From IMG/VR virus record IMGVR_UViG_3300017987_000005, positions 119,649 to 183,648 of that record: a DNA stretch of 64,000 bases. One strand, given 5' to 3'. Under the pieces are notes generated by a model that searched no databases, was not told the DNA's origin, and saw nothing but the letters and a program-made list of their open reading frames with translations. Below are positions 517-63,367 of the stretch, piece after piece (the first letter of the stretch is position 1; each line of letters opens with the position of its first letter). Both the position numbers and the translations under genes were made by a program. The stretch comes from a virus.

Positions 517-1218
517 TTAAATCGGTGATTCCAGGAACTCTTTAAGTTCTATATCTACATTAGCTCTCTTTATTATCCACGGGTTGTATGACCGCTGAAC
601 AAGAGGCGTTATATCAACTTTTGTAATAACACATGTGAACAGCTTCGGAGAACGGTGATGCTTCAGCCCATTGAATACTAAAATGGGCGGAGAATCCCAT
701 AATCCCGGTATAGTCATCGAACGCATGCGCAACCATTCGATACTTCCCTGCGTAGGTCTCATTCCACGAGTACTATTCGACGTTCCGCCGCGAACATGCC
801 TGTCACCACGGCTTCCAAGCGCGTGAACACTCTTTTCAGGCGATACGTTATAACGAACTCCGTGAGTAAGAACATTCGGACCACGCCATCCGGCACGACC
901 TGAAGCTTCCGGCATATTATCGCCAAGCGAAAAGTCATCAAAAAACAACGTCATCGTAACAATACGCTGACCGGTTCCGTCATACTGCGGACGAACACCT
1001 TCCCACTCACTTACTTCTTCCTCTTCATATTTAGTCTGGCGGGTATCGCTCCAAGTAGTCGGGTTATAGTGGAACAGCATTAAATCAGACGGGTCATCAC
1101 GCTGGAATAACGCCATCTTATACGTATTGGCATTTAACGGTCTCGTCTTCTGCTCATCGTCTGCGCCGAACTTTTTCGGCATCGTAGCTTTACGAGGATA
1201 ATCAGCCATTATTTCCAA
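517..1218 (-). CDS. tail tube initiator / CIS tube-like protein
   Basis: FHYNPT..S..R, MTLFFD and RANVDIELKE motifs; directly after the tape measure gene. Confidence 0.6.
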   Translation of the reverse strand: MEIMADYPRKATMPKKFGADDEQKTRPLNANTYKMALFQRDDPSDLMLFHYNPTTWSDTRQTKYEEEEVSEWEGVRPQYDGTGQRIVTMTLFFDDFSLGDNMPEASGRAGWRGPNVLTHGVRYNVSPEKSVHALGSRGDRHVRGGTSNSTRGMRPTQGSIEWLRMRSMTIPGLWDSPPILVFNGLKHHRSPKLFTCVITKVDITPLVQRSYNPWIIKRANVDIELKEFLESPI

Positions 1219-4200
1219 CTCCCAACACCAGGCGGTTTCCTATCACCTTCGGTATGTCTGCGAAGAAGGTCCTCACCCGAATACTGAAGAACAGTTTCAT
1301 ATATCTTACGTCCGTCAAGATTCAAAACAACAGGTATAACTACAGTCGGCATTGTAGAAGCTCCGCCTCCTGAAGCTGCGGCGGCTGCGGCGGCTGCTCC
1401 TCCTCCGCCTCCTCGCCCTACAGACATGTCATTATCAATACCGATACTCGCTACTGCGCTGGAGTCCCCGAGTCCTGATATCGGCGCCACGATATTTCCA
1501 GCAACAATATTCATTGACATATTAGCTGACATATCGCCACCACCTCCGAATATCGAACTGATTATCTTTCCAATCAATCCGAATATCCCGAATATGGATG
1601 TCAAAACTTTCAAAAATACTTTGAACAAATCAGTAACAATCTTCACTCCCTCGATAAGCTCAGGGAATAATGAATTTCCAAATAATAAATCGTATATCCA
1701 CTTAAAAACTTTATACGCTAAGTATAGCGGAGCTAAAAATGGAAAAAACAAGAAGGCAACCTTTTTCAACGCCCAGCTAAGTTTTTCAAAAAGTCCGAGC
1801 AACCACTTAAATCCGGCAACTATCCATCCGAATAATATTTTTCCGAACCACAGTAAGAATTTACCAGCATACCATATAGCAGCTCCTACTATAAACAGTA
1901 TCCCGGCTATAAGCAATATTATCGGAGCAAGCCCACTCGCCCACATAGCGGTAGCAAAATTCCACGTAGCAACTACGGCACTCCATACCATAGGAACGAG
2001 AGCTATCAATCCAGAGATAGCTGCTGCTATCGCTTTTGCCGCTAACCCTATAAGATTAAACTTCAAAATAGCAACAGCAGCTATGAGAGCAACAATCGGT
2101 TTAGCGAGTACTTCGAATGCTTTTATCAACCCCTTTGTCGGCTTCAAAAAATCTTTGGCTGCATCTATCCACTCATTAAATTTATCCACGGCGGGAGATA
2201 CAAAATCTACTAAATCATTCCATAAATCGACAAACGGTGTCATCATATCAATCAGAACATTTATTATCCCCATAATCAATAGATTAAGAAGCTTAATAAG
2301 TATCCTGATAATATATACTGCTGCGACTATCGGGAAAAACAGTGCTCCGAGGAATACTCCGGCAACGATAGCGACAGCCTTAAACACTTGAGCAAGTATT
2401 GATACGAGCGACCTGAACATATGCACTAGTTTCTGAACAGCTAATCCAATGGTGCGCATCAAATCAAAAAACGGCTCCAGTACAACTTTTATCAGTCCCC
2501 ATGCTTTATAAAATACGTACCCCAAGAACGCTACGGCAGCGGCTATCCCTAAAACTATCCAAGTTACAGGATTAGTAAGTAATGCCCACGTAAACTTCAG
2601 TACGGCTGCGGTAGCTCCCCATAAAGCAATAATCATTTTCTTAATAGCTACGCCCGCAGCAAATAACTGTGCTTTTCCAAACGCTATTGTCGCTGCTTCT
2701 CCAGCCACTAACCCCGGTATGTATTTGTTCCATATCAATAAAACGTTATTCCACTGCGCTGCCCACCACGCTTTTGACGCTACGGTATTCATCACTGTAG
2801 CAGTAAACAATCCCCAGTATTTAGCAATCAATGCTTGAGTAGAAAGTATGTGATACAGTAATGGAGTAATAAGAATCCAGAAAGCTAATGCTAACGCTCC
2901 TATGGCAGCTAAAACCCCGCCCTTTCCGAGTACTCTCATTAAAGACTGTGTCCACGATATTACTTGCTTTACAGCTCTAATGACTAGCTTAATAGCTGCA
3001 ACGGCGGCAGTTATTGGGAAGAATATTACGGCAATCGCTTTCTGAAAATCAGTACTGTTCCCACTAACTACGTCGAGAATAGAATTCAATATTTTAATAG
3101 AAGCAATTAAAGCGAACACTACTCCGACTACCGATGCTATCGCAGCCCCCGCAAACCCGAACACCTGAGACAGTTTTGATAAAACTGCTGACCCTATCCT
3201 CCCCTGGGCAATCCAGTTCTGAGTAAAAGTCCCGAGCTTTCCGATATACTTTGTTACAAACGCAGTAACCTTACCCCACTGCTTTAACACTTTATTCCAA
3301 ATACTCTGCCACCATACTACGGACATAATATTTGCTTTTAGTATAATGAGCTGCCCCCACAAATACTTAACTCCCTTTGAAGCTGCCGACCATGCTACTT
3401 TCCCGAAGGCAAGCATCTTTGCTCCAGCCCACTTAAGCAGATTTCCAAGTTCAGTAACAGCCTTCCCCTGCATTACCCATACTTTCCAGGTCATCCTCAG
3501 TTGCTTAGTAAACGCTGCATATACCGTGCCCATCTTCTCAGTAGTACGGACTAACAGTTTCTTAGCTAATGTCAATATTCCCATTTTATTAGCCATCATT
3601 GCAGCAGCCCAGCTTCCGCGATTCACAGCGCTCGCCCACTTAATAAGAAGTACTCTGGAAAGCATAAACAGCGTCAGTAGGGCAGATAACCCCGCCATTA
3701 CTATTGTAATAACAGTTACTAACCCTGCGGTAAGTCCTACGAGCATCCATATGGGACGAGGAATCATAAGAAGTGCGGCAAAAAATGCTATGAAAACATT
3801 TATGACAGCTCTCAGCGGAGGAAGTAATGCGGAACCAACGATAATCGCAAGGTTCTTAATAGACCCTATTAAAATCATAATTTTAGCGTGTACTGACGTA
3901 GCTGTAATTGCATACTGCTCATTAAGTTCGGTCCCCTGGCGAAATGCGTTATTAGCAACGCCGACCTGCTTTTCAATATCGCGAACACGAGCAGTCAAAC
4001 CCATGAATACACGAATAGCACGAGCAGCGTTCAGACCGAGTACCTCAATCGCAGGAGCAACTTCGCTCCTACTCAAGTTACCGAGTCGAGTCAACACTCT
4101 GACAAGAATTTCCATCGGTCGTGTCTGGAGCATTGTCGAATATACTTCCTGAGTTACTCCGATAAAATCTGCAAATGCTTTTTGGCGCTTGGACATCATC

Positions 4201-50740: not shown

Positions 50741-50770
50741 ATACTAACTCTTAAAAAGAGATTGTCACCT

Positions 50771-51127
50771 TGGAGGTGGGGGGAATTGCACCCCCGTCCT
50801 GTAATGCCTCATGCATCGCGTCTACAATCATAGCCAGCGAGCGTCGTAATTTAGAAGCTAGTAACTTGTCTGGCTCATTCCTAGCGTTCGAGTCTTCGTT
50901 GGTTTCTCTGCTCTCAGACGGTAAAGACTTCCTCTTCCGAGCACAGCCGATACATTTACGTCCCTCGCTATAATATCGGCGTCATGCAGCAGGGACGGGT
51001 GCGTTTAAGCAGCCATTTTTACTGGTTTTGCATTTATCATGCTTGAGTGGATTGATGACGGGGCCAACCACTCATCCCCGGATTGCAGCTTAACAGTCTA
51101 ACATCCAGTCAAGCCTAAATCACCCCC
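50771..51127 (-). ncRNA. ssrA: tmRNA, tag (A)AKPVKMAA
   Basis: 5' GGGGGTG..GGCTTGAC; 3' GGACGGGGGTGCAATTCCCCC-CACCTCCA with G3.U; resume context ATAAAT-GCA, tag 51031-51005. Confidence 0.93.
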
Positions 51128-51146
51128 ATTTTCAAAGAACAAAATA

Positions 51147-57383: not shown

Positions 57384-57698
57384 TTATCGAATAATCCAGA
57401 CTTCAGAATCTTTATTCTCAATATACCAATCATCATACCAATACCATTGATGGTCAAACTCATCATAGTAATAAGCTTCTATAGTGCTATACAAATCGGC
57501 AACTATTGCGCACTCCTCTCCAGGAAGTATATCAATAGTGTATGTCTCTGAATCAAAAACGTAATCTATCGAGATATACAGTCCGGTCAGGTTATAGACT
57601 CTTACGTCCAACTCGGACTCATAATCAGTGTTATCGACATTACATCCAATAATAAATGCAGCGATAACAAGTAACGGCAATACTCGACTCATAATCAC
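57384..57698 (-). CDS. putative lipoprotein
   Basis: Signal peptide ending IIGC. Confidence 0.65.
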   Translation of the reverse strand: MIMSRVLPLLVIAAFIIGCNVDNTDYESELDVRVYNLTGLYISIDYVFDSETYTIDILPGEECAIVADLYSTIEAYYYDEFDHQWYWYDDWYIENKDSEVWIIR

Positions 57699-57718
57699 TC
57701 TCCTAAGTCTACGCTTAT

Positions 57719-57746
57719 ATTATAGCGTATAATTATGATATGTCAA
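57719..57746 (-). promoter_or_regulatory. sigma70-type promoter, 16-bp spacer
   Basis: TTGACA-N16-TATAAT then ATAAGCGTAGAC. Confidence 0.8.
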
Positions 57747-57754
57747 GCAAAATA

Positions 57755-57795
57755 TAAAAAAATTCCCGTCCCCAGGGCTTACCTGAAGACGGGAA
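57755..57795 (-). terminator. intrinsic terminator
   Basis: TTCCCGTC/GACGGGAA stem then T-tract. Confidence 0.65.
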
Positions 57796-58420
57796 CGCCG
57801 TAATCAACCACAATCGGTTGCCGTATTACCTTGTTCTTTGTATTACATAAACTTGCATTTATGAAGGTCGTATCACCATACGGACAGGAAACTCCGTAGG
57901 CGCTATGAATGTGTCCGAAAATATGATACTTCGGTTTTATCCTCCGTACAGTATCGTACAGGTCTGCGCACCCTACTGGAATCCCCCGAGATTGGTCGAG
58001 TATTCCGGCGGGCGGGGTATGGGTAATCAGGACATCAACATCCTCCGGAATCATATCCCACTTATCAGCAAGAGCTTCTCCCCGAGGAAGATTAAATGCC
58101 CAGTCCTCAAACTCCGGCTGCCACGGGCTTCCGTAAAATTTAATTCCGTCTATCGTGATTTGGTCATCTTCAAGATAGTATGCGACTGAATAGTCAAAAA
58201 AGTTCGGGATTTTATCCCAGTATTTCTGGAAGCATTTATCGTGGTTCCCGGCAACAACAATTTTATACGGATGCGGAAGGTATCTGATGAATTCTATAAA
58301 TGCTTTGACTTCCTTTCGTCCCCCGAATGCGCATATATCGCCAGCCACAACAAGGACGTCCCCTTTAGGAACATCAAAATTAAAATTAGCATGAAGGTCT
58401 GATATAATAGTTAAGCGCAT
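57779..58420 (-). CDS. calcineurin-like metallophosphoesterase
   Basis: SDLH, AGD, GNHD, THTPP, FGHIH. Confidence 0.92.
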   Translation of the reverse strand: MRLTIISDLHANFNFDVPKGDVLVVAGDICAFGGRKEVKAFIEFIRYLPHPYKIVVAGNHDKCFQKYWDKIPNFFDYSVAYYLEDDQITIDGIKFYGSPWQPEFEDWAFNLPRGEALADKWDMIPEDVDVLITHTPPAGILDQSRGIPVGCADLYDTVRRIKPKYHIFGHIHSAYGVSCPYGDTTFINASLCNTKNKVIRQPIVVDYGVPVFR

Positions 58421-58506
58421 TTCACTCTCCGTTTAAGTGCCGAGGCGAGCAGCCCAGGGTTCCGCGTGATTAGTGGAAGATGCTGCTCACCTCAGCGTGA
58501 GATTGT

Positions 58507-58534
58507 ATTATACCATATATTTTTAATTTGTCAA
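58507..58534 (-). promoter_or_regulatory. sigma70-type promoter, 16-bp spacer
   Basis: TTGACA-N16-TATAAT with extended TG. Confidence 0.75.
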
Positions 58535-58542
58535 GTAAAAAA

Positions 58543-58617
58543 TGGTATCCCCGGATGGAATCGAACCATCATCTAAAGCTTAGGAGGCTTTCGTAATATC
58601 CATTATACTACGGGAAC
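58543..58617 (-). tRNA. tRNA-Arg(CCT)
   Basis: Cloverleaf, AAAGC-CTCCTAA-GCTTT, CCA. Confidence 0.9.
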
Positions 58618-58618
58618 A

Positions 58619-58693
58619 TGGTACTCCCTGAAGGAATCGAACCCTCATCATCAGCTTAGAAGGCTGTTGCACTTTCCGTTGTGCTAAGGGAGC
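58619..58693 (-). tRNA. tRNA-Arg(TCT)
   Basis: Cloverleaf, CT-TCT-AA, CCA. Confidence 0.9.
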
Positions 58694-58694
58694 A

Positions 58695-58772
58695 TGGTGG
58701 ACGGGGTTGGATTTGAACCAACGACTCCTGCATTTTCAGTGCAGAGCTACTACCTGGCTGAGCTACCCGTCC
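58695..58772 (-). tRNA. tRNA-Phe(GAA)
   Basis: CTGCA-CTGAAAA-TGCAG, CCA. Confidence 0.9.
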
Positions 58773-59227
58773 TCTTCATTTCTATCTTCCTCATGGTCAT
58801 TATCGGTCTGCACAGTGCATCCCAACTTATTAACCTCGTCACACACATCTTTAAGAAATTCTCTCGTACCGTCACTGGCGTATGACTCCCATCCTTTTTC
58901 GTAATCCCTCGGATTAATCCATCCGAATATGCTGAAATCCTGGACGTATTCGAGTCTCTTAAATCCGCGTTCCTCAAACTCATTAATAAATCTTCGGTCG
59001 GTAACAACTTCTGACGAACGCACAGTCGGTTGACGATGCTTGCGCTCACTACTACTATAAAGTCTGTAATGACGCGCGATAGCTTCCTCTTCAAGAAGGC
59101 TATATATTCGAGCGAAGACTTCTACAGAAATCTTATAGAACTCATCATAGCTGAGTCGCTCTTCGTGCGTCACAATTACACAGCTACTATCTTCAGGAGA
59201 ACCGTAACCAAAACGATAACAATACAT
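58763..59227 (-). CDS. hypothetical protein within the tRNA array
   Basis: AGGAG RBS; 154 aa. Confidence 0.6.
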   Translation of the reverse strand: MYCYRFGYGSPEDSSCVIVTHEERLSYDEFYKISVEVFARIYSLLEEEAIARHYRLYSSSERKHRQPTVRSSEVVTDRRFINEFEERGFKRLEYVQDFSIFGWINPRDYEKGWESYASDGTREFLKDVCDEVNKLGCTVQTDNDHEEDRNEEDG

Positions 59228-59244
59228 GCATCTCCTTTTCTATC

Positions 59245-59319
59245 TGGTAGGCGCGGGAAGAGTTGAACTTCCGTTAGAAGTTTATAAGACTTCCGTTCTT
59301 ACCGTTGAACTACGCGCCA
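59245..59319 (-). tRNA. tRNA-Ile(TAT)
   Basis: GAAGT-CTTATAA-ACTTC, CCA; 1:72 mismatch. Confidence 0.88.
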
Positions 59320-59555
59320 GCTAAAGGTATAAGCTTATCCTCAGCGACAAGCAAATAACAACGATTTCCATCATCCATCTTAAAAGTACAAGGCCACGAA
59401 ACTCCCCAATGAGACGCACTCCACGACTCACGTGGTTCGTCTTTAATGGTCAGGTCTTCATAATCACGTTCTACATGCTTGACCTTCTGACCTATTCGGA
59501 AATCCTTTTTGACTCGAAATGTCCCGCATAATTTTCCAACAAACGACTCACCCAT
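59310..59555 (-). CDS. hypothetical protein
   Basis: AGGAG RBS. Confidence 0.55.
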   Translation of the reverse strand: MGESFVGKLCGTFRVKKDFRIGQKVKHVERDYEDLTIKDEPRESWSASHWGVSWPCTFKMDDGNRCYLLVAEDKLIPLAGA

Positions 59556-59574
59556 AACCCGCTCCTTTAATATC

Positions 59575-59652
59575 TGGTGGGCCCACAGGGATTTGAACCC
59601 CGGACACGCGCATTATGAGTGCGACGCTCTAACCAGACTGAGCTATGGGCCC
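59575..59652 (-). tRNA. tRNA-Ile2(CAT)
   Basis: GGGCCCA acceptor typical of Ile2, CT-CAT-AA, CCA. Confidence 0.8.
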
Positions 59653-59664
59653 GTGATAAATAAA

Positions 59665-59743
59665 TGGTCCTGCGAGGAGGATTTGAACCTCCGACCTCCT
59701 CCTTATCAGGGAGGCGCTACTAACCGGGCTGAGCTACCGCAGG
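59665..59743 (-). tRNA. tRNA-Ile(GAT)
   Basis: CCTCC-CTGATAA-GGAGG, CCA. Confidence 0.9.
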
Positions 59744-59746
59744 ATA

Positions 59747-59820
59747 TGGTTGCCCTACAGGGATTTGAACCCCAACTAATTGATTCAGAGTCAATCGTGC
59801 TACCGTTACACTATAGGGCA
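59747..59820 (-). tRNA. tRNA-Gln(CTG)
   Basis: ATTGA-CTCTGAA-TCAAT, CCA. Confidence 0.9.
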
Positions 59821-59899
59821 AAATACAGGGTTGCTGCAAAGCGCAACCCCAACTCCTTCTGCTCTTACATCAAAAATAAATGGCAGATGAGATAATATA

Positions 59900-59975
59900 T
59901 GGTGGGCGCGAGAGGATTCGAACCTCCGACTTCTTGCTTGTAAGGCAAGCGCTCTAGCCGCTGAACTACGCGCCC
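59900..59975 (-). tRNA. tRNA-Val(TAC)
   Basis: CTTGC-CTTACAA-GCAAG, CCA. Confidence 0.92.
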
Positions 59976-59977
59976 AA

Positions 59978-60055
59978 TGGCGAGGGTGACGGGACTCGAA
60001 CCCGCAAACTTCCTGCTCGACAGGCAGGTGCTCTACGCTATTGAACTACACCCCC
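59978..60055 (-). tRNA. tRNA-Asp(GTC)
   Basis: CCTGC-CTGTCGA-GCAGG, GCCA. Confidence 0.92.
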
Positions 60056-60065
60056 GTGTAATAAC

Positions 60066-60276
60066 TGGTGAGCATGACGGGATTCGAACCCGCACCGCAG
60101 CATTTAGGCCCAGCCGCTCATTAAGCTTTCCACTCTTTTCTCCCGTATATCCCTTCATCACTGCTTCCTCACCACAGAGCGAACTCTGGTCCCAGGTGTG
60201 ATAGACAGGTCAGCGAGCACTTACGGGTGCCTCGACAGGTCCACTTAAATCGTTCTACCAATTAAACTACATGCTC
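60066..60276 (-). ncRNA. tRNA-like RNA with ~130-nt structured insert replacing the anticodon loop
   Basis: GAGCATG/CATGCTC-ACCA, D arm, GCGGG-TTCGAAT-CCCGT; ATTTA/TAAAT stem encloses the insert. Confidence 0.8.
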
Positions 60277-60281
60277 AAACA

Positions 60282-60417
60282 TGGTCGCCAGCGGGGAGGT
60301 TCTCACTCCCATAGGCGGCTAACTCCTATTCAATCTCGATTCGAATCACCCGCAGCCGACGCGGTACACTTCGAATCTACAGCAGGGAATCGGTCACCCT
60401 GCTTGGCATCGCTGGCA
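60282..60417 (-). ncRNA. expanded tRNA-like RNA without a canonical anticodon loop
   Basis: GCCAGCG/CGCTGGC-GACCA, AGCAGGG/CCCTGCT, GATTCGAA/TTCGAATC, ATAGG/CCTAT, GGGAG-TGAGAAC-CTCCC. Confidence 0.75.
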
Positions 60418-60434
60418 TATAATTTTCAAAGAAC

Positions 60435-60511
60435 TGGTTACCCCGGAAGGATTTGAACCTTCAACAGCGACATTCAAAGTGTCGTGCTCTAGCCAATTGA
60501 GCTACGGGGTA
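60435..60511 (-). tRNA. tRNA-Gln(TTG)
   Basis: CGACA-CTTTGAA-TGTCG, CCA. Confidence 0.9.
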
Positions 60512-60554
60512 TTATATATTTACGAAAGAACAACTGCAAACGATTGCAAAAAAA

Positions 60555-60629
60555 TGGTGGGCCGAGAAGGGGTCGAACCTTCAACCTTCGGATTAAGAGT
60601 CCGCTGCTCTGCCATTGAGCTACCGGCCC
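60555..60629 (-). tRNA. tRNA-Lys(CTT)
   Basis: CT-CTT-AA loop, CCA. Confidence 0.92.
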
Positions 60630-60630
60630 T

Positions 60631-60656
60631 TGGTGTGCTGAGAGAGATTCGAACTC
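60631..60656 (-). pseudogene. orphan tRNA 3' fragment (T arm + acceptor + CCA)
   Basis: GAG-TTCGAAT-CTC..TCAGCAC-ACCA fused to the HNH stop codon. Confidence 0.7.
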
Positions 60657-61059
60657 AGTCGTCCCAATGAATAATCCTGTGACAGTTAGAGCAAACTACA
60701 TCGCACTTAGCTATCTCAGCGTCAATTCTTTCAAACGACCAACATCTCGCAACAGCTAACGACAATTCCGAATCTTTGTCCCCGGACTCGCGATGATGAA
60801 AATCCAAACATCTTGGGTCACTCATCCCGCACACTACACAAGGATGGCTGCTCTTATAATCAAACAAGTACTTCCTACGAATAGCTCTATTATCGCGATT
60901 AGTCTTAACACGCTTAGCTCTATCCCTACGGTAATACTTCTTAGAGTATTCAGCCATACACTCCTTACATCTCGTCTGGAGTCCGTCGGCCTGCTTACTA
61001 TTTTTAGAGAACAAAGATACGTCTTTACGCTTTCCACACTTTCCGCATAACTTATCCAT
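60655..61059 (-). CDS. HNH endonuclease with N-terminal Zn finger
   Basis: CGKC..CKEC; PCVVCG, LDFHH, EIAKCDVVCSNCHR. Confidence 0.9.
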   Translation of the reverse strand: MDKLCGKCGKRKDVSLFSKNSKQADGLQTRCKECMAEYSKKYYRRDRAKRVKTNRDNRAIRRKYLFDYKSSHPCVVCGMSDPRCLDFHHRESGDKDSELSLAVARCWSFERIDAEIAKCDVVCSNCHRIIHWDD

Positions 61060-61086
61060 AGCGATTCCTTAATTATAGTCATCCCT

Positions 61087-61114
61087 ATAGTAGCACTTTT
61101 AATCACTATGTCAA
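61087..61114 (-). promoter_or_regulatory. promoter for the HNH gene, 16-bp spacer
   Basis: TTGACA-N16-TACTAT with extended TG. Confidence 0.6.
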
Positions 61115-61125
61115 ATTAAAAATAA

Positions 61126-61202
61126 TGGTGGGACCGGTGGAAGTCGAATCCACAACCCCCGGATTAAAAGTCCGGTGCTCTATCCAGTTGAGCTACGGCC
61201 CC
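61126..61202 (-). tRNA. tRNA-Lys(TTT)
   Basis: CCGGA-CTTTTAA-TCCGG, CCA. Confidence 0.92.
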
Positions 61203-61221
61203 GTATCAAGGCTGCAACTCA

Positions 61222-61262
61222 CACTGAAAAGTGCGGTACTCTATCCGTTGAGTTACCAGCCC
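61222..61262 (-). pseudogene. orphan 5' half of a tRNA-Lys(TTT)
   Basis: GGGCTGG-TA-ACTC..GAGT-A-CCGCA-CT-TTT, then the cloverleaf breaks. Confidence 0.7.
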
Positions 61263-61264
61263 GT

Positions 61265-61608
61265 CTACTTACGTTTTCGCTTTCGTTTGTCCACTATATC
61301 TATTCCTTTATAATCTTCTAAATACCACTTAATAACAGTCATAACTACGTTCCGAAATTCCACTCCCCACACATCGCAAATACTCTCATGCAATCGGGTC
61401 AGTATCGTCTTCGGCTTCCATCCATGCTTCAGCGAATCCTCTACTAAATCAATCCAATCTGGCAACCAGTTGCGTTGATGTAGATTATGGAAAATTACGC
61501 CAAAGGCAATCCGTGCCTATCAAAGAGCTTGAAGACTCCCTTCACAACGAGCTTCCCTTCCGGAGTCTTCCCTGAAAAAGAAAGCTTCAACTTCTTCTTA
61601 CGTCCCAT
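61265..61608 (-). pseudogene. frameshifted gene for a protein with an AlaRS-like FKLxDxxGxPL motif
   Basis: MGRKKK...GVFKLFDRHGLPL continues in the -1 frame at ~61500 as GVIFHNL...PDWIDL. Confidence 0.55.
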
Positions 61609-61625
61609 GACGTCTCCTTATATAT

Positions 61626-61702
61626 TGGGGTGAGCGACGGGGGTCGAACCCGTACCTTCAGGGCCACAACCTGACATGCAGAGCCGCTACACTACGCCCA
61701 CC
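61626..61702 (-). tRNA. tRNA-His(GTG)
   Basis: G-1, TCAGG-TTGTGGC-CCTGA, C-CCA. Confidence 0.92.
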
Positions 61703-61712
61703 GTGTAAATCA

Positions 61713-61755
61713 TGGAGCGGGTATGGAGATTCAAACTCCACCTTCTAGCCTGGGA
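61713..61755 (-). pseudogene. displaced 3' half of a tRNA-Gly(CCC)
   Basis: CCC-AG-GCTAG..TGGAG-TTTGAAT-CTCCA-TACCCGC-TCCA; 5' half absent. Confidence 0.8.
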
Positions 61756-61759
61756 TGAA

Positions 61760-62437
61760 TCACATAACCCACTCTTCTTTTTCAAATCCTACAAACTCCT
61801 GAATAGCGCCATATAATTTTTGAATAACTTCCGTACAACAAACTGAAACATTACACAATCCATAAACATTTGATTTTCTTTTATGCTTAGAACTACTCGG
61901 ATATCTATCAACTTGCGGCTTCGTAAAATTATCAATAGATATACCTAAAAGCTCTGACCAATATTGTTCAATGTCACTGACAGTCAGCCCCTTATCAGTA
62001 TAACAAACAACATATGCTCGCATCTTATCACTAGAAACATTAAAGAACTTACGCAAAAACTTAACATAAAATAACATCATATTCTCGTCCATATTTGAAA
62101 ACTTAGCTTGGTTTCGCAACGTCTTACTTCCTTCTGCCCAATATAACATGCACCCTGCTATGAATTCAGGGTCTCGTTCCCGAGCAAGCTCTCTTCCATC
62201 ATTTTGCCACTGCTCTCTAAGCTTACGATAATATTTTTTCCTACGCTGCCCTTCAGCATATGGACCTTTTCTCGAATTATCGTAGATAATTTTCTCCTGC
62301 TCAGCAGTAAGCTGTATATCACGAACCCACACACTAACCGTCCCTTTGCTTACGCCAAGCTTATCAGCAATAACTGATAAAGGAAGTCCATCCTCCTTGC
62401 GCATCCTACGGGCTTCTTTACGCTCTTTAGCTTTCAT
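61760..62437 (-). CDS. HTH + LAGLIDADG-like endonuclease
   Basis: IADKLGVSKGTVSVWV HTH; GCMLYWAEGSK, FSN.D, YW. Confidence 0.75.
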   Translation of the reverse strand: MKAKERKEARRMRKEDGLPLSVIADKLGVSKGTVSVWVRDIQLTAEQEKIIYDNSRKGPYAEGQRRKKYYRKLREQWQNDGRELARERDPEFIAGCMLYWAEGSKTLRNQAKFSNMDENMMLFYVKFLRKFFNVSSDKMRAYVVCYTDKGLTVSDIEQYWSELLGISIDNFTKPQVDRYPSSSKHKRKSNVYGLCNVSVCCTEVIQKLYGAIQEFVGFEKEEWVM

Positions 62438-62522
62438 AATAACTCCTTAAATAGAACTCACGTATATATACATATATATAGTAGACATAAGTTCTAAAAT
62501 GTCAACTAAAAAGCGAAAAAAG

Positions 62523-62596
62523 AGCGAGAGGCGGGCCTCGAACCCGCAACCTTTTGCCTGGGAAGCAAATGCTCTGCCTATTTGAGCTACTCCCGC
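62523..62596 (-). tRNA. tRNA-Gly(CCC)
   Basis: TTTGC-TTCCCAG-GCAAA; no encoded CCA. Confidence 0.9.
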
Positions 62597-62652
62597 ATTA
62601 TATCAAAAGTGTCAATGAAGCTAGCGTGCTAATCGCTGACACTATACCCGCA

Positions 62653-62728
62653 TGGAGTGAGCGACGGGGGTCGAACCCGCGACCATCAGATTGGAAATCT
62701 GAGACTCTACCAACTGAGTTACGCTCAC
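62653..62728 (-). tRNA. tRNA-Gly(TCC)
   Basis: TCAGA-TTTCCAA-TCTGA, TCCA. Confidence 0.9.
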
Positions 62729-62756
62729 ATTCAAATCAATTTTCAAAAGAACAATA

Positions 62757-62832
62757 TGGAGCTGACGGCGGGAATCGAACCCGCGACCTCATCCTTACCA
62801 AGGATGTGCTCTACCGGCTGAGCTACGTCAGC
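62757..62832 (-). tRNA. tRNA-Thr(GGT)
   Basis: CATCC-TTGGTAA-GGATG. Confidence 0.93.
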
Positions 62833-62840
62833 CTATTAAA

Positions 62841-63034
62841 ATCCAGTTCCGTAAGCGGGATTCTGTTCTATCCTATCATTTATCTTTGCCACTACCATTC
62901 CTCATCGGGCTGCTCACCCCCTCGGATAATTCGTGTTGCTCCCTCGGTGGTGCAATCGAGTGCAAACTCTCCCACCTTAAGCAGCGGAGTCCCGACTTTC
63001 CTCAGACTTACGTCCGCGATAGGTCGAACTGGAT
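62841..63034 (-). ncRNA. rnpB: minimal RNase P RNA (~194 nt)
   Basis: P1 ATCCAGTTC/GAACTGGAT; CR-I GAGGAAAGTCGGG; CR-V AACAGAATCCCGCTTA; GGAGCAA and AGATAAATGAT. Confidence 0.88.
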
Positions 63035-63043
63035 ATCTATTTA

Positions 63044-63119
63044 TGGAGCCACGAGTCGGACTCGAACCGACAACCTGTTGATTACAAGTCAACTGCACTT
63101 CCAATTGTGCTACCGTGGC
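63044..63119 (-). tRNA. tRNA-Thr(TGT)
   Basis: GTTGA-CTTGTAA-TCAAC. Confidence 0.92.
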
Positions 63120-63122
63120 ATA

Positions 63123-63200
63123 TGGAGCCGGCGGGGGGACTCGAACCCTCCAACTTCCGCATTACGAGTGCGGCGCTCTGCCAATTAAAGCTACGCCGGC
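63123..63200 (-). tRNA. tRNA-Thr(CGT)
   Basis: CCGCA-CTCGTAA-TGCGG. Confidence 0.9.
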
Positions 63201-63203
63201 TTA

Positions 63204-63279
63204 TCGGGCTGAATGGATTCGAACCATCGGTCTCGTGGCCCCCAGCCACGCGTCTTAAGCCAAGCTAGACTACAGCCCG
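63204..63279 (-). tRNA. tRNA-Pro(GGG)
   Basis: CGTGG-CTGGGGG-CCACG; no encoded CCA. Confidence 0.9.
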
Positions 63280-63287
63280 TTTATTTT

Positions 63288-63364
63288 TGGTCTGGATGAG
63301 AGGATTTGAACCTCCGACTTCGTGCTCCCAAGGCACGCGCCCTACCAAGCTGGGCTACATCCAG
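63288..63364 (-). tRNA. tRNA-Pro(TGG)
   Basis: CGTGC-CTTGGGA-GCACG, CCA. Confidence 0.92.
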
Positions 63365-63367
63365 ATA

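What the first reader, a model, noticed from the sequence alone, without database searches (positions are those of the whole stretch)
60282..60417. Expanded tRNA-like RNA with a predicted kissing loop masking the anticodon position
Seen: 7-8 bp acceptor + ACCA, 7-bp D-like stem, 8-bp stem extended by CCGC-GTCGGCT-GCGG, extra arm ATAGG-AGTTAGCCG-CCTAT, T arm with TGAGAAC loop. Loop CGGCT is complementary to loop AGCCG. No UCA or CUA, so not Sec or Pyl. It is adjacent to the other anticodon-less RNA. Inference: a non-decoding tRNA mimic (decoy for nucleases, synthetases or RelA).
Basis: partly seen in the sequence, partly recalled or inferred. Interest (0 to 1): 0.75.

Follow-up and report, generated by a model that had tools for sequence, protein, structure and literature searches.

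The report
Orphan tRNA-shaped RNA in phage array
A 184-kb phage carries, among its 45 tRNA genes, a 136-base RNA gene that folds like an oversized tRNA but cannot read codons; it is probably a helper RNA of the phage's Ro60/Y-RNA system or another tRNA look-alike decoy, but no relative was found, so this stays unproven.

Summary
The fold is far better than shuffled sequence (-55.2 kcal/mol, z = -3.97, 0 of 200 shuffles).

The RNA sits in register inside a tRNA operon and ends in ACCA. It is not a decoding tRNA:
- ARAGORN and every Rfam model, including tRNA, tRNA-Sec, tmRNA and YrlA, miss it.
- The 'anticodon' arm is about 17 pair-steps long.
- The D-loop GG and T-loop UC that build the tRNA elbow are absent.
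- All 20 amino acids are already served by normal tRNAs.

The kissing loop is only a 5-base complementarity. Chance gives that 1.4% of the time for this pair and 8% for any loop pair, and no homologue exists to test covariation.

The same RNA array holds a Ro60/TROVE gene followed by six Y-RNA-like tRNA mimics, about 5.5 kb upstream.

My best guess (about 0.3) is a Y-RNA-like accessory RNA whose long capped arm docks Ro60. However, three profile tests for the known docking handle failed. A Ro60-independent decoy is about as likely. I rate it a new variant of a known kind, of moderate interest.

The parts
60282..60417 (-). The whole 136-nt tRNA-shaped RNA (5' end at 60417, 3' ACCA at 60285-60282)
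   Evidence: Sequence. MFE fold -55.2 kcal/mol, z = -3.97. Identical in 7 independent contigs.
60410..60417 (-). Acceptor-like stem, 5' strand (UGCCAGCG)
   Evidence: Pairs with 60286-60293 in the MFE fold. 8 bp including U.G.
60381..60403 (-). D-like hairpin: 7-bp stem and 9-nt loop UGACCGAUU. The GGG that would be the D-loop G18/G19 lies buried in the stem.
60338..60377 (-). Long arm at the anticodon position: 8-bp helix with UUCGAA on both strands, 5x4 purine/U internal loop (GUGUA/GUGA), 4-5-bp distal helix, cap GUCGGCU
   Evidence: The layout resembles the capped Ro60 handles of L067 and L092, but the handle models do not score it.
60311..60329 (-). Extra (variable-arm-like) hairpin AUAGG-AGUUAGCCG-CCUAU
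   Evidence: Its loop is complementary over 5 nt to the cap of the long arm.
60294..60310 (-). T-like arm GGGAG-UGAGAAC-CUCCC. It keeps the T-loop skeleton (U54, R57, A58, G53-C61) but has GA in place of the UC at 55-56.
60282..60293 (-). Acceptor 3' strand CGCUGGCG plus single-stranded ACCA. The next RNA starts 5 nt downstream.
60423..60434 (-). boxA-like motif GUUCUUUGAAAA, directly after the CCA of tRNA-Gln(UUG) and 5 nt before the element. The same motif precedes the tmRNA, some tRNAs and the Y-like units.
   Evidence: Regex scan of the genome: 7 minus-strand hits and 0 plus-strand hits, all before RNA genes.
60511..60540 (-). Sigma-70-like promoter match (TTTGCA-18-TATAAT) just upstream of tRNA-Gln(UUG). 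It could start the unit tRNA-Gln / element / neighbour / tRNA-Asp / tRNA-Val.
   Evidence: 10 of 12 matches. The number of such sites in the region is not above shuffles, so this is weak.
60066..60280 (-). Tandem neighbour: canonical tRNA acceptor, D and T arms with CCA, and about 130 nt in place of the anticodon loop. It contains AAGCAGUGAUGAAG, identical to the start of Y-like unit 5.
   Evidence: ARAGORN calls it only in intron mode. Model R2 scores it 26.6 bits, inconclusive.
59826..59851 (-). Terminator-like hairpin plus U tract, downstream of tRNA-Val
   Evidence: Counts are not above shuffles.

Best explanation
The element is a real, non-decoding small RNA derived from a tRNA.

**Maturation (inferred).** It is transcribed within a tRNA operon and probably cut out by the tRNA-maturation enzymes. 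RNase P would act at the 5' end. The 3' end carries an encoded ACCA. The 13-bp acceptor/T minihelix imitates a tRNA.

**Why it cannot decode (shown).** The arm at the anticodon position is a rod of about 17 pair-steps, and the D/T elbow contacts are gone.

**Most likely role (inferred).** It is an accessory RNA of the phage's own Ro60 (TROVE + vWA) / Y-RNA system. The long capped arm (short distal helix, purine-rich internal loop, 8-bp helix with CGAA) would serve as a docking stem for the Ro60 ring. It occupies the position where the Ro60-binding stem sits in YrlA, but it is closed by a loop while the acceptor end is open. The tRNA-like end would then present an ACCA-tailed minihelix to a tRNA-binding partner such as an exonuclease, a repair enzyme or a defence nuclease.

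**Odds.** About 0.75 that it is a functional non-decoding tRNA-derived RNA. About 0.3 that Ro60 is its partner.
For: **It looks like a real, structured RNA.**
- The fold is highly non-random and all 38 pairs are standard, with no mismatches.
- It sits in register in the array: 17 nt after the CCA of tRNA-Gln, 5 nt before the next RNA, behind the same boxA-like motif that precedes the tmRNA and the Y-like units.

**It is not a decoding tRNA.**
- ARAGORN and all Rfam models fail on it.
- The tRNA set is already complete.

**Ro60 context.**
- The same minus-strand array holds a TROVE/Ro60 gene (Pfam TROVE E = 3.9e-34).
- Six Y-like units follow that gene, with sub-threshold YrlA hits of 40.6, 25.7 and 20.8 bits.
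- The element lies about 5.5 kb downstream of the gene in the direction of transcription.
- Its tandem neighbour is a tRNA body whose anticodon loop is replaced. The insert carries a 14-nt word identical to the handle start of Y-like unit 5.

**Precedent for the topology.**
- Y RNAs with an open acceptor and a capped Ro60 handle at the anticodon position occur beside rsr in L067 and L092. Their layout is an 8-bp helix, an internal loop, a 4-bp helix and a cap.
- M. smegmatis YrlA is cut by RNase P and receives CCA (PMC4201824).
- Phage Ro60 proteins bind phage-encoded Y-like RNAs that carry a CGAA motif (PMC12135203).
- The element's arm carries UUCGAAG and GGUGAUUCGAAUCG. These are near-matches to GNCGAAN0-1G.
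Against: **Every objective test for the known docking handle failed.**
- nhmmer profiles of the six units' 5' and 3' handles find only the six units.
- A covariance model of capped canonical handles (R3) does not score the arm, even with filters off on 6.5 kb.
- Rfam YrlA gives no hit at E <= 10.

**The motif evidence is weak.** CGAA sits in a self-complementary UUCGAA, and a 4-mer in a 40-nt arm is expected by chance about 14% of the time.

**The body differs from YrlA.** YrlA keeps a canonical tRNA elbow, whereas this RNA does not.

**Linkage is loose.** About 30 tRNA genes separate the element from the TROVE gene.

**There is no comparative or expression evidence.**
- No homologue was found in 16 viral and 80 metagenomic TROVE loci, in 50,697 phage records or in 151 Bacteroidota genomes. 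There is therefore no covariation and no evidence of conservation beyond one phage population.
- No expression data could be obtained.
Confidence: 0.3

Rival explanations
1. A tRNA-shaped decoy or adaptor that works without Ro60. The ACCA-tailed minihelix and the hairpin loops would soak up or recruit another tRNA-binding factor. Candidates are a host tRNA-cleaving defence nuclease, a synthetase, EF-Tu, the CCA-adding enzyme or a stringent-response factor.
For: It has the same structural evidence for a real, processed, non-decoding RNA. The handle tests for Ro60 docking are negative. An unchecked first-reader note, e1-5625166, says the phage carries RNA-repair and translation-rescue genes. Pfam finds HD_4, a metallophosphoesterase and a radical SAM protein next to the array.
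Against: No candidate partner can be named from the sequence. The canonical elbow, which many tRNA-binding proteins read, is missing. There is no anticodon loop in tRNA geometry for anticodon nucleases to recognise. No conservation data exist.
Confidence: 0.25
2. A relic or by-product. A former class II tRNA gene was remodelled by insertion of a palindromic hairpin in a region full of homing endonucleases. It is still transcribed and perhaps processed, but has no function of its own.
For: An HNH endonuclease gene lies 240 nt upstream. First-reader notes describe split tRNA genes nearby. The element is an orphan: there is no paralogue in the genome and no homologue anywhere searched. The 5' part, UGCCAAGCAGG, faintly recalls the D-arm start of class II tRNAs.
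Against: All six helices are perfect and longer than their tRNA counterparts, whereas decay would leave mismatches. The elbow partners are altered on both sides in a coordinated way. The long arm is not a repeated element in the genome.
Confidence: 0.15
3. A cis-acting structural element of the RNA operon, with no role as a free RNA. It could be a processing punctuation mark, a transcript stabiliser or part of the boxA-type antitermination layout.
For: It lies directly behind a boxA-like motif, between a promoter-like and a terminator-like site. tRNA-like shapes can direct RNase P cuts.
Against: Neighbouring true tRNAs already supply processing sites every 75-90 nt. A five-helix, 136-nt structure with an encoded ACCA is far more than punctuation needs.
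Confidence: 0.1
4. A decoding or intron-bearing tRNA. One reading removes the distal hairpin, leaving a loop that reads U-GUA (Tyr-like). Another uses the apical 7-nt loop GUCGGCU as anticodon CGG.
For: The 5' side of the internal loop reads G-U-G-U-A, that is U33 plus GUA at the right offset from the helix end. Related TROVE phages (L029, L046, L070) carry tRNAs with 32-61-nt inserts after the anticodon. The apical loop has U at its second position.
Against: - The stem below would be 8 bp rather than 5.
- Removing the hairpin leaves 9 loop nucleotides rather than 7.
- The internal loop is symmetric, so it is not a bulge-helix-bulge.
- The D and T loops lack the invariant nucleotides.
- The tRNA and tRNA-Sec models and ARAGORN in intron mode all fail.
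- Normal tRNA-Tyr(GUA) and tRNA-Pro(CGG) genes are already present.
- Any triplet at that offset would read as some anticodon.
Confidence: 0.04
5. Not a gene at all: a chance fold in a spacer.
For: No homologue, no expression data and no family match.
Against: z = -3.97 with 0 of 200 shuffles as good. The placement in the tRNA array is exactly in register and the 3' ACCA is encoded. The element is the only long stretch between tRNAs here without an ORF of known family.
Confidence: 0.05

Closest known systems
YrlA-type bacterial and phage Y RNAs (Rfam RF02553; Chen et al. 2014, PMC4201824; phage phiLo Yrl1/Yrl2, PMC12135203)
   Same: - Both are tRNA-derived, non-decoding RNAs.
- Both are encoded on the same strand as a Ro60/TROVE gene inside a phage RNA array.
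- In both, a long protein-docking-type stem sits where the anticodon arm would be.
- Both have a CGAA-containing helix next to an internal loop.
- There is precedent for an open acceptor with CCA (M. smegmatis YrlA after RNase P cleavage).
- Capped-handle forms occur beside rsr (L067, L092).
   Different: - The 5' and 3' ends lie in the acceptor, not in the handle, so the topology is permuted.
- The canonical D/T elbow is absent.
- An extra variable-arm hairpin is present.
- The YrlA covariance model, the phage's own handle profiles and a capped-handle model all fail.
- The element lies 5.5 kb from the TROVE gene rather than next to it.
Class II tRNAs and tRNA-Sec (8/5 acceptor/T geometry, long variable arm)
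   Same: An 8-bp acceptor plus a 5-bp T stem gives 13 stacked pairs, as in bacterial tRNA-Sec. It also has a long extra arm abutting the T stem, a long D stem, an encoded NCCA end and a T-loop skeleton.
   Different: There is no UCA or any usable anticodon loop, and the arm is about 17 pair-steps long. The linkers measure 6, 3 and 8 nt where a tRNA has 2, 1 and 0-1. T-loop positions 55-56 are GA. No tRNA or tRNA-Sec model hit appears at E <= 10.
The tandem neighbour RNA (window 60066-60280) and the six Y-like units of this phage (genome 995-1880)
   Same: They share the operon, the boxA-like leader motif and the design idea of a tRNA-derived scaffold carrying a non-tRNA module.
   Different: The neighbour and the units keep canonical D and T loops. 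The units share a handle that a profile detects (E about 4e-7 to 9e-5). The element has neither.
tmRNA tRNA-like domain
   Same: An acceptor/T minihelix with CCA, a reduced D region, and a long helix leaving from the anticodon side.
   Different: There is no G3.U70, no reading frame and no pseudoknots. The only Rfam tmRNA hit in the 60040-60450 scan is a 15-nt T-arm match in the neighbour. The phage has a complete tmRNA elsewhere.

Membership tests
tRNA (RF00005) / tRNA-Sec (RF01852) | Scores with the covariance model or is found by a tRNA finder | tested here: not met
   No hit at E <= 10 in cmscan of 60040-60450. ARAGORN finds nothing, with or without intron mode.
tRNA (RF00005) / tRNA-Sec (RF01852) | 7-nt anticodon loop on a 5-6-bp stem at tRNA distance from the elbow | tested here: not met
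   The arm is 8 bp + a 5x4 internal loop + 4-5 bp + cap.
tRNA (RF00005) / tRNA-Sec (RF01852) | Elbow nucleotides: G18 G19 in the D loop, U55 C56 in the T loop | tested here: not met
   The D-like loop UGACCGAUU has no GG, and the GGG lies inside the 7-bp stem. The T loop is UGAGAAC.
tRNA (RF00005) / tRNA-Sec (RF01852) | Acceptor stem stacked on the T stem, with a single-stranded NCCA 3' end | tested here: met
   8 + 5 bp with no linker, then ACCA.
YrlA / Y RNA (RF02553) | Scores with the YrlA covariance model | tested here: not met
   No hit on the element at E <= 10. The only YrlA hit in the stretch (13.8 bits, E = 6) spans the neighbour/tRNA-Asp junction.
YrlA / Y RNA (RF02553) | Encoded near a Ro60/TROVE gene on the same strand | tested here: inconclusive
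   It is on the same strand and in the same RNA array, but about 5.5 kb and about 30 tRNA genes away.
YrlA / Y RNA (RF02553) | GNCGAAN0-1G motif on the handle strand that leads into the tRNA-like domain (PMC4201824) | tested here: inconclusive
   Only near-matches occur: UUCGAAG and UUCGAAUCG. Both lie in a palindromic UUCGAA helix, and the chance expectation is not negligible.
YrlA / Y RNA (RF02553) | Bound by Ro60/Rsr | not testable with these tools
   This needs EMSA or co-immunoprecipitation.
This phage's six-unit Y-like family | Shared 5' handle (..GUGAUGA..GAGUUACUUCG) and 3' handle (..UCGCUACUUUCCUG) | tested here: not met
   nhmmer with both profiles over the genome finds the six units only (5' handle E 4e-7 to 9e-5). 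There is nothing on the element at E <= 100.
Open-acceptor, capped-handle YrlA variants (L067, L092) | Capped handle scoring with a model of those arms | tested here: not met
   Model R3, with filters off on window 57500-64000, gives no hit on the arm at E <= 10. Only the helix/loop layout is alike.
~195-nt tRNA-ended RNA family beside rsr (alignment A4, model R2) | Scores with model R2 | tested here: not met
   The element is not among the 15 hits at E <= 10. The neighbour scores 26.6 bits, but plain tRNAs score 12-20 bits.

The most novel reading that the evidence does not exclude
The element would represent a third topology of Y RNA. It would be an elbow-less, circularly permuted tRNA mimic: the Ro60 ring docks on a capped arm at the anticodon position, while an open, genome-encoded ACCA acceptor end stays free to be charged, repaired or fed to an exonuclease. 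Together with its tandem neighbour it would form a second, dispersed set of Ro60 adaptor RNAs inside the phage's tRNA operons.
Probability: 0.15. Interest if true: 0.7.

Novelty: new variant of a known kind. Interest (0 to 1): 0.4.

Why it matters
Large phages are turning out to carry Ro60-type proteins together with families of tRNA-mimicking RNAs. What these do during infection is not known.

A tRNA-shaped RNA that keeps only the acceptor/T minihelix and replaces everything else would help define the minimum 'tRNA-ness' that such systems need. If it binds the phage Ro60, Y-type adaptors are more diverse and more widely scattered through tRNA arrays than the current models (Rfam YrlA) can detect. 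If it does not, it is a candidate for a new kind of phage-encoded tRNA decoy.

For now it is a single-lineage orphan. Its weight rests on one strong fold and its genomic company.

Tried and rejected
**Rfam.** The whole window at gathering thresholds, and 60040-60450 at E <= 10, gave nothing on the element.

**Homologue searches, all negative.**
- blastn against 50,697 phage records found only two chance hits at E = 5.
- Three pattern scans of IMG/VR found nothing: the T arm plus acceptor, the three loops with free stems, and the arm motifs.
- One scan of GTDB genomes gave 3 hits, about the number expected by chance. All were negative with model R1.
- The single-sequence covariance model R1 found only the element itself in its own genome. 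It found nothing in 10 metallophosphoesterase loci, 16 viral TROVE loci, 80 metagenomic TROVE loci or 151 Bacteroidota genomes.

**Routes to relatives through neighbouring proteins.**
- The portal protein has no close relative in IMG/VR.
- The metallophosphoesterase has relatives at 85% and 76% identity, but their contigs lack the tRNA array.
- The 154-aa ORF inside the array exists only in this phage. Its 15 contigs carry the element unchanged wherever they reach it.

**Argument dropped.** I first read CGAAGAG in the insert-bearing tRNAs of L029 as a Ro60 motif. The orthologues in L070 lack it, and these look like true tRNAs with inserts.

**5'-end resemblance.** The element's CCAGCGAUGCCAAG matches the Y-unit start CCAGUGAUGAAGAG at 10 of 14 positions. 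The profile search did not bear this out.

**Other comparisons.**
- Comparison with the phage's own class II tRNAs showed no relative.
- A second CCA-ended candidate RNA at 47470-47635 does not fold better than shuffles, z = 0.0.

Full report
**Where it lies.** The window is the last 64 kb of a 183,648-bp IMG/VR virus record with a 123-bp terminal repeat. The virus is a myovirus: it has tail sheath and portal PHROG hits. All large ORFs are on the minus strand. ARAGORN finds 45 tRNA genes covering all 20 amino acids. They form one array that runs over the record's ends, at genome 178191-183558 and 62-4953. A complete tmRNA lies at window 50770-51127. The finding sits on the minus strand between tRNA-Gln(UUG) (60435-60511) and a second odd RNA (60066-60280). 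tRNA-Asp and tRNA-Val follow.

**The observation.**
- An 8-bp terminal stem, first pair U.G.
- A 6-nt linker.
- A 7-bp hairpin with a 9-nt loop.
- A 3-nt linker.
- A long arm: the 8-bp helix GAUUCGAA/UUCGAAUC, the internal loop GUGUA/GUGA, the 4-5-bp helix CCGC(G)/(U)GCGG, and the cap GUCGGCU.
- An 8-nt linker.
- A 5-bp hairpin with loop AGUUAGCCG.
- Directly abutting it, a 5-bp stem with the 7-nt loop UGAGAAC.
- Directly abutting that, the 3' strand of the terminal stem, then ACCA.

The MFE is -55.2 kcal/mol against -42.1 +/- 3.3 for dinucleotide shuffles (z = -3.97; 0 of 200 as good). All 38 pairs are standard. The next RNA begins 5 nt after the ACCA. The phage's ordinary tRNAs also encode CCA. 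The gene-like placement and the fold are therefore confirmed.

**The kissing loop.** CGGCU in the cap and AGCCG in the extra-arm loop are complementary (duplex -6.9 kcal/mol). Random loops of this composition give a match of at least 5 nt in 1.4% of trials for that pair and in 8% for any of the six loop pairs. The cap also matches the D-like loop over 4 nt. The internal loop can be read as a run of non-canonical pairs (G.A, U.G, G.U, A.G), which would make the arm a rod. That geometry does not favour folding back onto the extra arm; this point is inference. No diverged copy exists to test covariation, so the kissing loop is neither supported nor refuted.

**It is not a decoding tRNA.**
- ARAGORN misses it, with or without intron mode.
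- cmscan of 60040-60450 against all 4227 Rfam families at E <= 10 returns nothing on it. That library includes tRNA, tRNA-Sec, tmRNA and YrlA.
- The arm at the anticodon position is about three times the tRNA length.
- The T loop keeps the T-loop skeleton (U54, R57, A58, closing G-C) but has GA at 55-56.
- The GGG that would correspond to the D-loop G18/G19 is buried in the 7-bp stem. Both partners of the elbow contact are thus changed.
- Normal tRNA-Tyr(GUA) and tRNA-Pro(CGG) genes exist. Neither the U-GUA in the internal loop nor the CGG in the cap is needed.

What remains tRNA-like is the 13-bp acceptor/T minihelix with ACCA, the 8/5 geometry of bacterial tRNA-Sec, and an extra arm as in class II tRNAs.

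**The search for relatives.** Nothing was found.
- Phage records: no real match.
- IMG/VR pattern scans: none.
- GTDB pattern scan: three chance hits.
- Single-sequence model R1: only the element itself in the genome, and nothing in 106 related loci or 151 Bacteroidota genomes.
- The element has no paralogue and no significant local similarity to any tRNA of the phage.
- The 154-aa ORF 1 kb downstream occurs on 15 contigs from JGI, ENA and Logan. The seven of the eight fetched loci that reach the element carry it unchanged.

The RNA is stable within one phage population. Nothing can be said about its evolution.

The contigs fetched showed a 500-aa TROVE + DUF7788 protein in the same array, at genome 2021-3523 on the minus strand (Pfam TROVE E = 3.9e-34). 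This is a phage Ro60/Rsr. Directly downstream of it lie six tandem units:
- Each unit starts with ..GUG(A/C)UGA..GAG(U/A)UACUUCG and ends with ..CGC(U/C)(A/G)CUU(U/G)CC...
- Each encloses tRNA-like modules.
- Sub-threshold Rfam YrlA hits score 40.6, 25.7, 20.8 and 18.5 bits.
- The same handle words occur in Y-RNA arrays beside rsr in many of the 80 metagenomic TROVE loci.

An earlier agent of this scan reached the same reading for these six units (e1-5625162). I re-derived it independently here. Phage Ro60 proteins with Y-like RNAs are published (PMC4201824; PMC12135203).

The element lies about 5.5 kb downstream of the TROVE gene in the direction of transcription. It sits behind the same boxA-like word (GUUCUUUGAAAA) that precedes the tmRNA, two tRNAs and three of the Y-like units: 7 minus-strand hits, 0 plus-strand.

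Its tandem neighbour (60066-60280) has canonical tRNA acceptor, D and T arms, with about 130 nt in place of the anticodon loop. The insert includes AAGCAGUGAUGAAG, identical to the handle start of Y-like unit 5.

**Does the element carry a Ro60 handle?**

In favour:
- Natural Y RNAs with an open acceptor and a capped handle at the anticodon position exist beside rsr (L067 2690-2822 and 3578-3709; L092 621-749). Their arms are built as an 8-bp helix, an internal loop, a 4-bp helix and a cap, the same plan as here.
- The strand of the element's arm that runs toward the body reads GCGG-GUGA-UUCGAAUC-GAG. It contains GGUG and CGAA, as the handles do.
- The opposite strand reads UUCG-N5-UACC, as in many 3' handles.
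- M. smegmatis YrlA is opened by RNase P and gets CCA (PMC4201824), so an ACCA-ended Y RNA is not unprecedented.

Against:
- nhmmer profiles of the six 5' and 3' handles find only the six units. The neighbour scores E = 15 and the element nothing.
- A covariance model of the three capped handles (R3), run with filters off on 6.5 kb, does not score the arm.
- Rfam YrlA fails.
- A model of a conserved ~195-nt tRNA-ended RNA found upstream of rsr in eight loci (R2) does not score the element. It scores the neighbour only 6 bits above plain tRNAs.

The likeness is therefore architectural and contextual. It is not demonstrable homology.

**Most likely mechanism.**
- Shown: a strongly folding, tRNA-framed, ACCA-ended, non-decoding RNA gene sits in a tRNA operon of a phage that encodes Ro60 and Y-like tRNA mimics.
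- Inferred: it is excised by RNase P and the 3'-end machinery through its minihelix. It then acts as an accessory RNA of the Ro60 system, with the capped arm as the docking site and the open acceptor end as the module offered to a partner. I put this at about 0.3.
- A Ro60-independent tRNA decoy or adaptor is nearly as likely (0.25).
- A remodelled relic (0.15), a cis-acting operon element (0.1), a chance fold (0.05) and a decoding or intron-bearing tRNA (0.04) follow.
- The perfect, lengthened helices and the coordinated loss of both elbow partners argue against simple decay.

**Verdict.** The kissing loop is unproven. 'Non-decoding tRNA mimic' is reasonable, but the named targets are guesses, and the Ro60 context is the better lead. 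The element belongs to no family that I could test. It is best filed as a new variant of the known kind 'tRNA-derived mimic RNAs of phage RNA arrays'. It is a single-lineage orphan of moderate interest until expression, Ro60 binding or covariation is shown.

Noticed in passing
outside the window: G000:C1:2021-3523 (-) and 995-1880 (-) (locus L026): A phage Ro60/TROVE + vWA-like gene is followed by six tandem Y-RNA-like units. They share 5' and 3' handle words and carry different tRNA-like payloads: one in normal tRNA order, one a permuted tRNA-Lys(UUU) look-alike. All Rfam YrlA hits are below the gathering score.
   Followed up: partly
window 60066-60280 (-): The tandem neighbour has a canonical tRNA acceptor, D arm, T arm and CCA, with about 130 nt in place of the anticodon loop. 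The insert carries a 14-nt word identical to the handle start of Y-like unit 5. ARAGORN's 'tRNA-Phe(aaa) with intron' call for it looks arbitrary. Model R2 scores it 26.6 bits, against 12-20 bits for plain tRNAs.
   Followed up: partly
window 62740-62752, 60423-60434, 51129-51140 (-); genome 4227-4238, 1722-1733, 1302-1313, 1149-1160 (-): The word GUUCUUU(N1-2)A(A/C)AA is close to the E. coli rrn boxA GCUCUUUAACAA. It occurs seven times, only on the minus strand and always just upstream of an RNA gene: a tRNA, the tmRNA, the element or a Y-like unit.
   Followed up: partly
L029/L046 11920-12056, 12064-12192, 18531-18641, 18646-18755, 19840-19971; L070 1805-1924, 1929-2035: Related TROVE phages from the same sample series carry tRNA-Leu, Ser, Ile, Arg and Trp genes with 32-61-nt inserts in or just after the anticodon loop. 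The Ile and Arg pairs are conserved between two phages and appear to be the only Ile and Arg genes in the locus. They look like intron-bearing phage tRNAs whose removal route is unknown.
   Followed up: partly
L054 2388-2580, L059 3631-3824, L077 10986-11182 and 12679-12865, L089 9677-9868, L097 287-486, L099 9661-9853, L104 11680-11874, L122 12323-12520 (alignment A4): A well-conserved RNA of about 195 nt (75% mean identity) has tRNA-like ends and invariant blocks UUUGCAG.UGCACCGAAA and GUAGGGAAGCGCAUUUA. It lies next to rsr/TROVE genes in eight metagenomic loci. Rfam gave no hit on the L099 copy.
   Followed up: partly
L067 2690-2822 and 3578-3709; L092 621-749: These are YrlA-type RNAs in permuted form. 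The tRNA-like body has an open 7-bp acceptor, and the canonical Ro60 handle is closed by a GCAA or UGAG-type cap at the anticodon position, immediately upstream of rsr. ARAGORN reports them as intron-bearing tRNAs.
   Followed up: partly
window 60655-61059 (-): An HNH endonuclease gene (phrog_2255, E = 5.9e-34) sits inside the tRNA array between two tRNA-Lys genes, 240 nt upstream of the element.
   Followed up: partly
window 44501-44588 (-); L029 11749-11836: An 88-nt tRNA-Met(CAU) with a long variable arm lies outside the main array. A similar 88-nt CAU tRNA lies just downstream of the TROVE gene in L029.
   Followed up: no
window 47470-47635 (-): Another first-reader note flags a CCA-ended structured RNA candidate here. 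It does not fold better than shuffled sequence (z = 0.0).
   Followed up: yes
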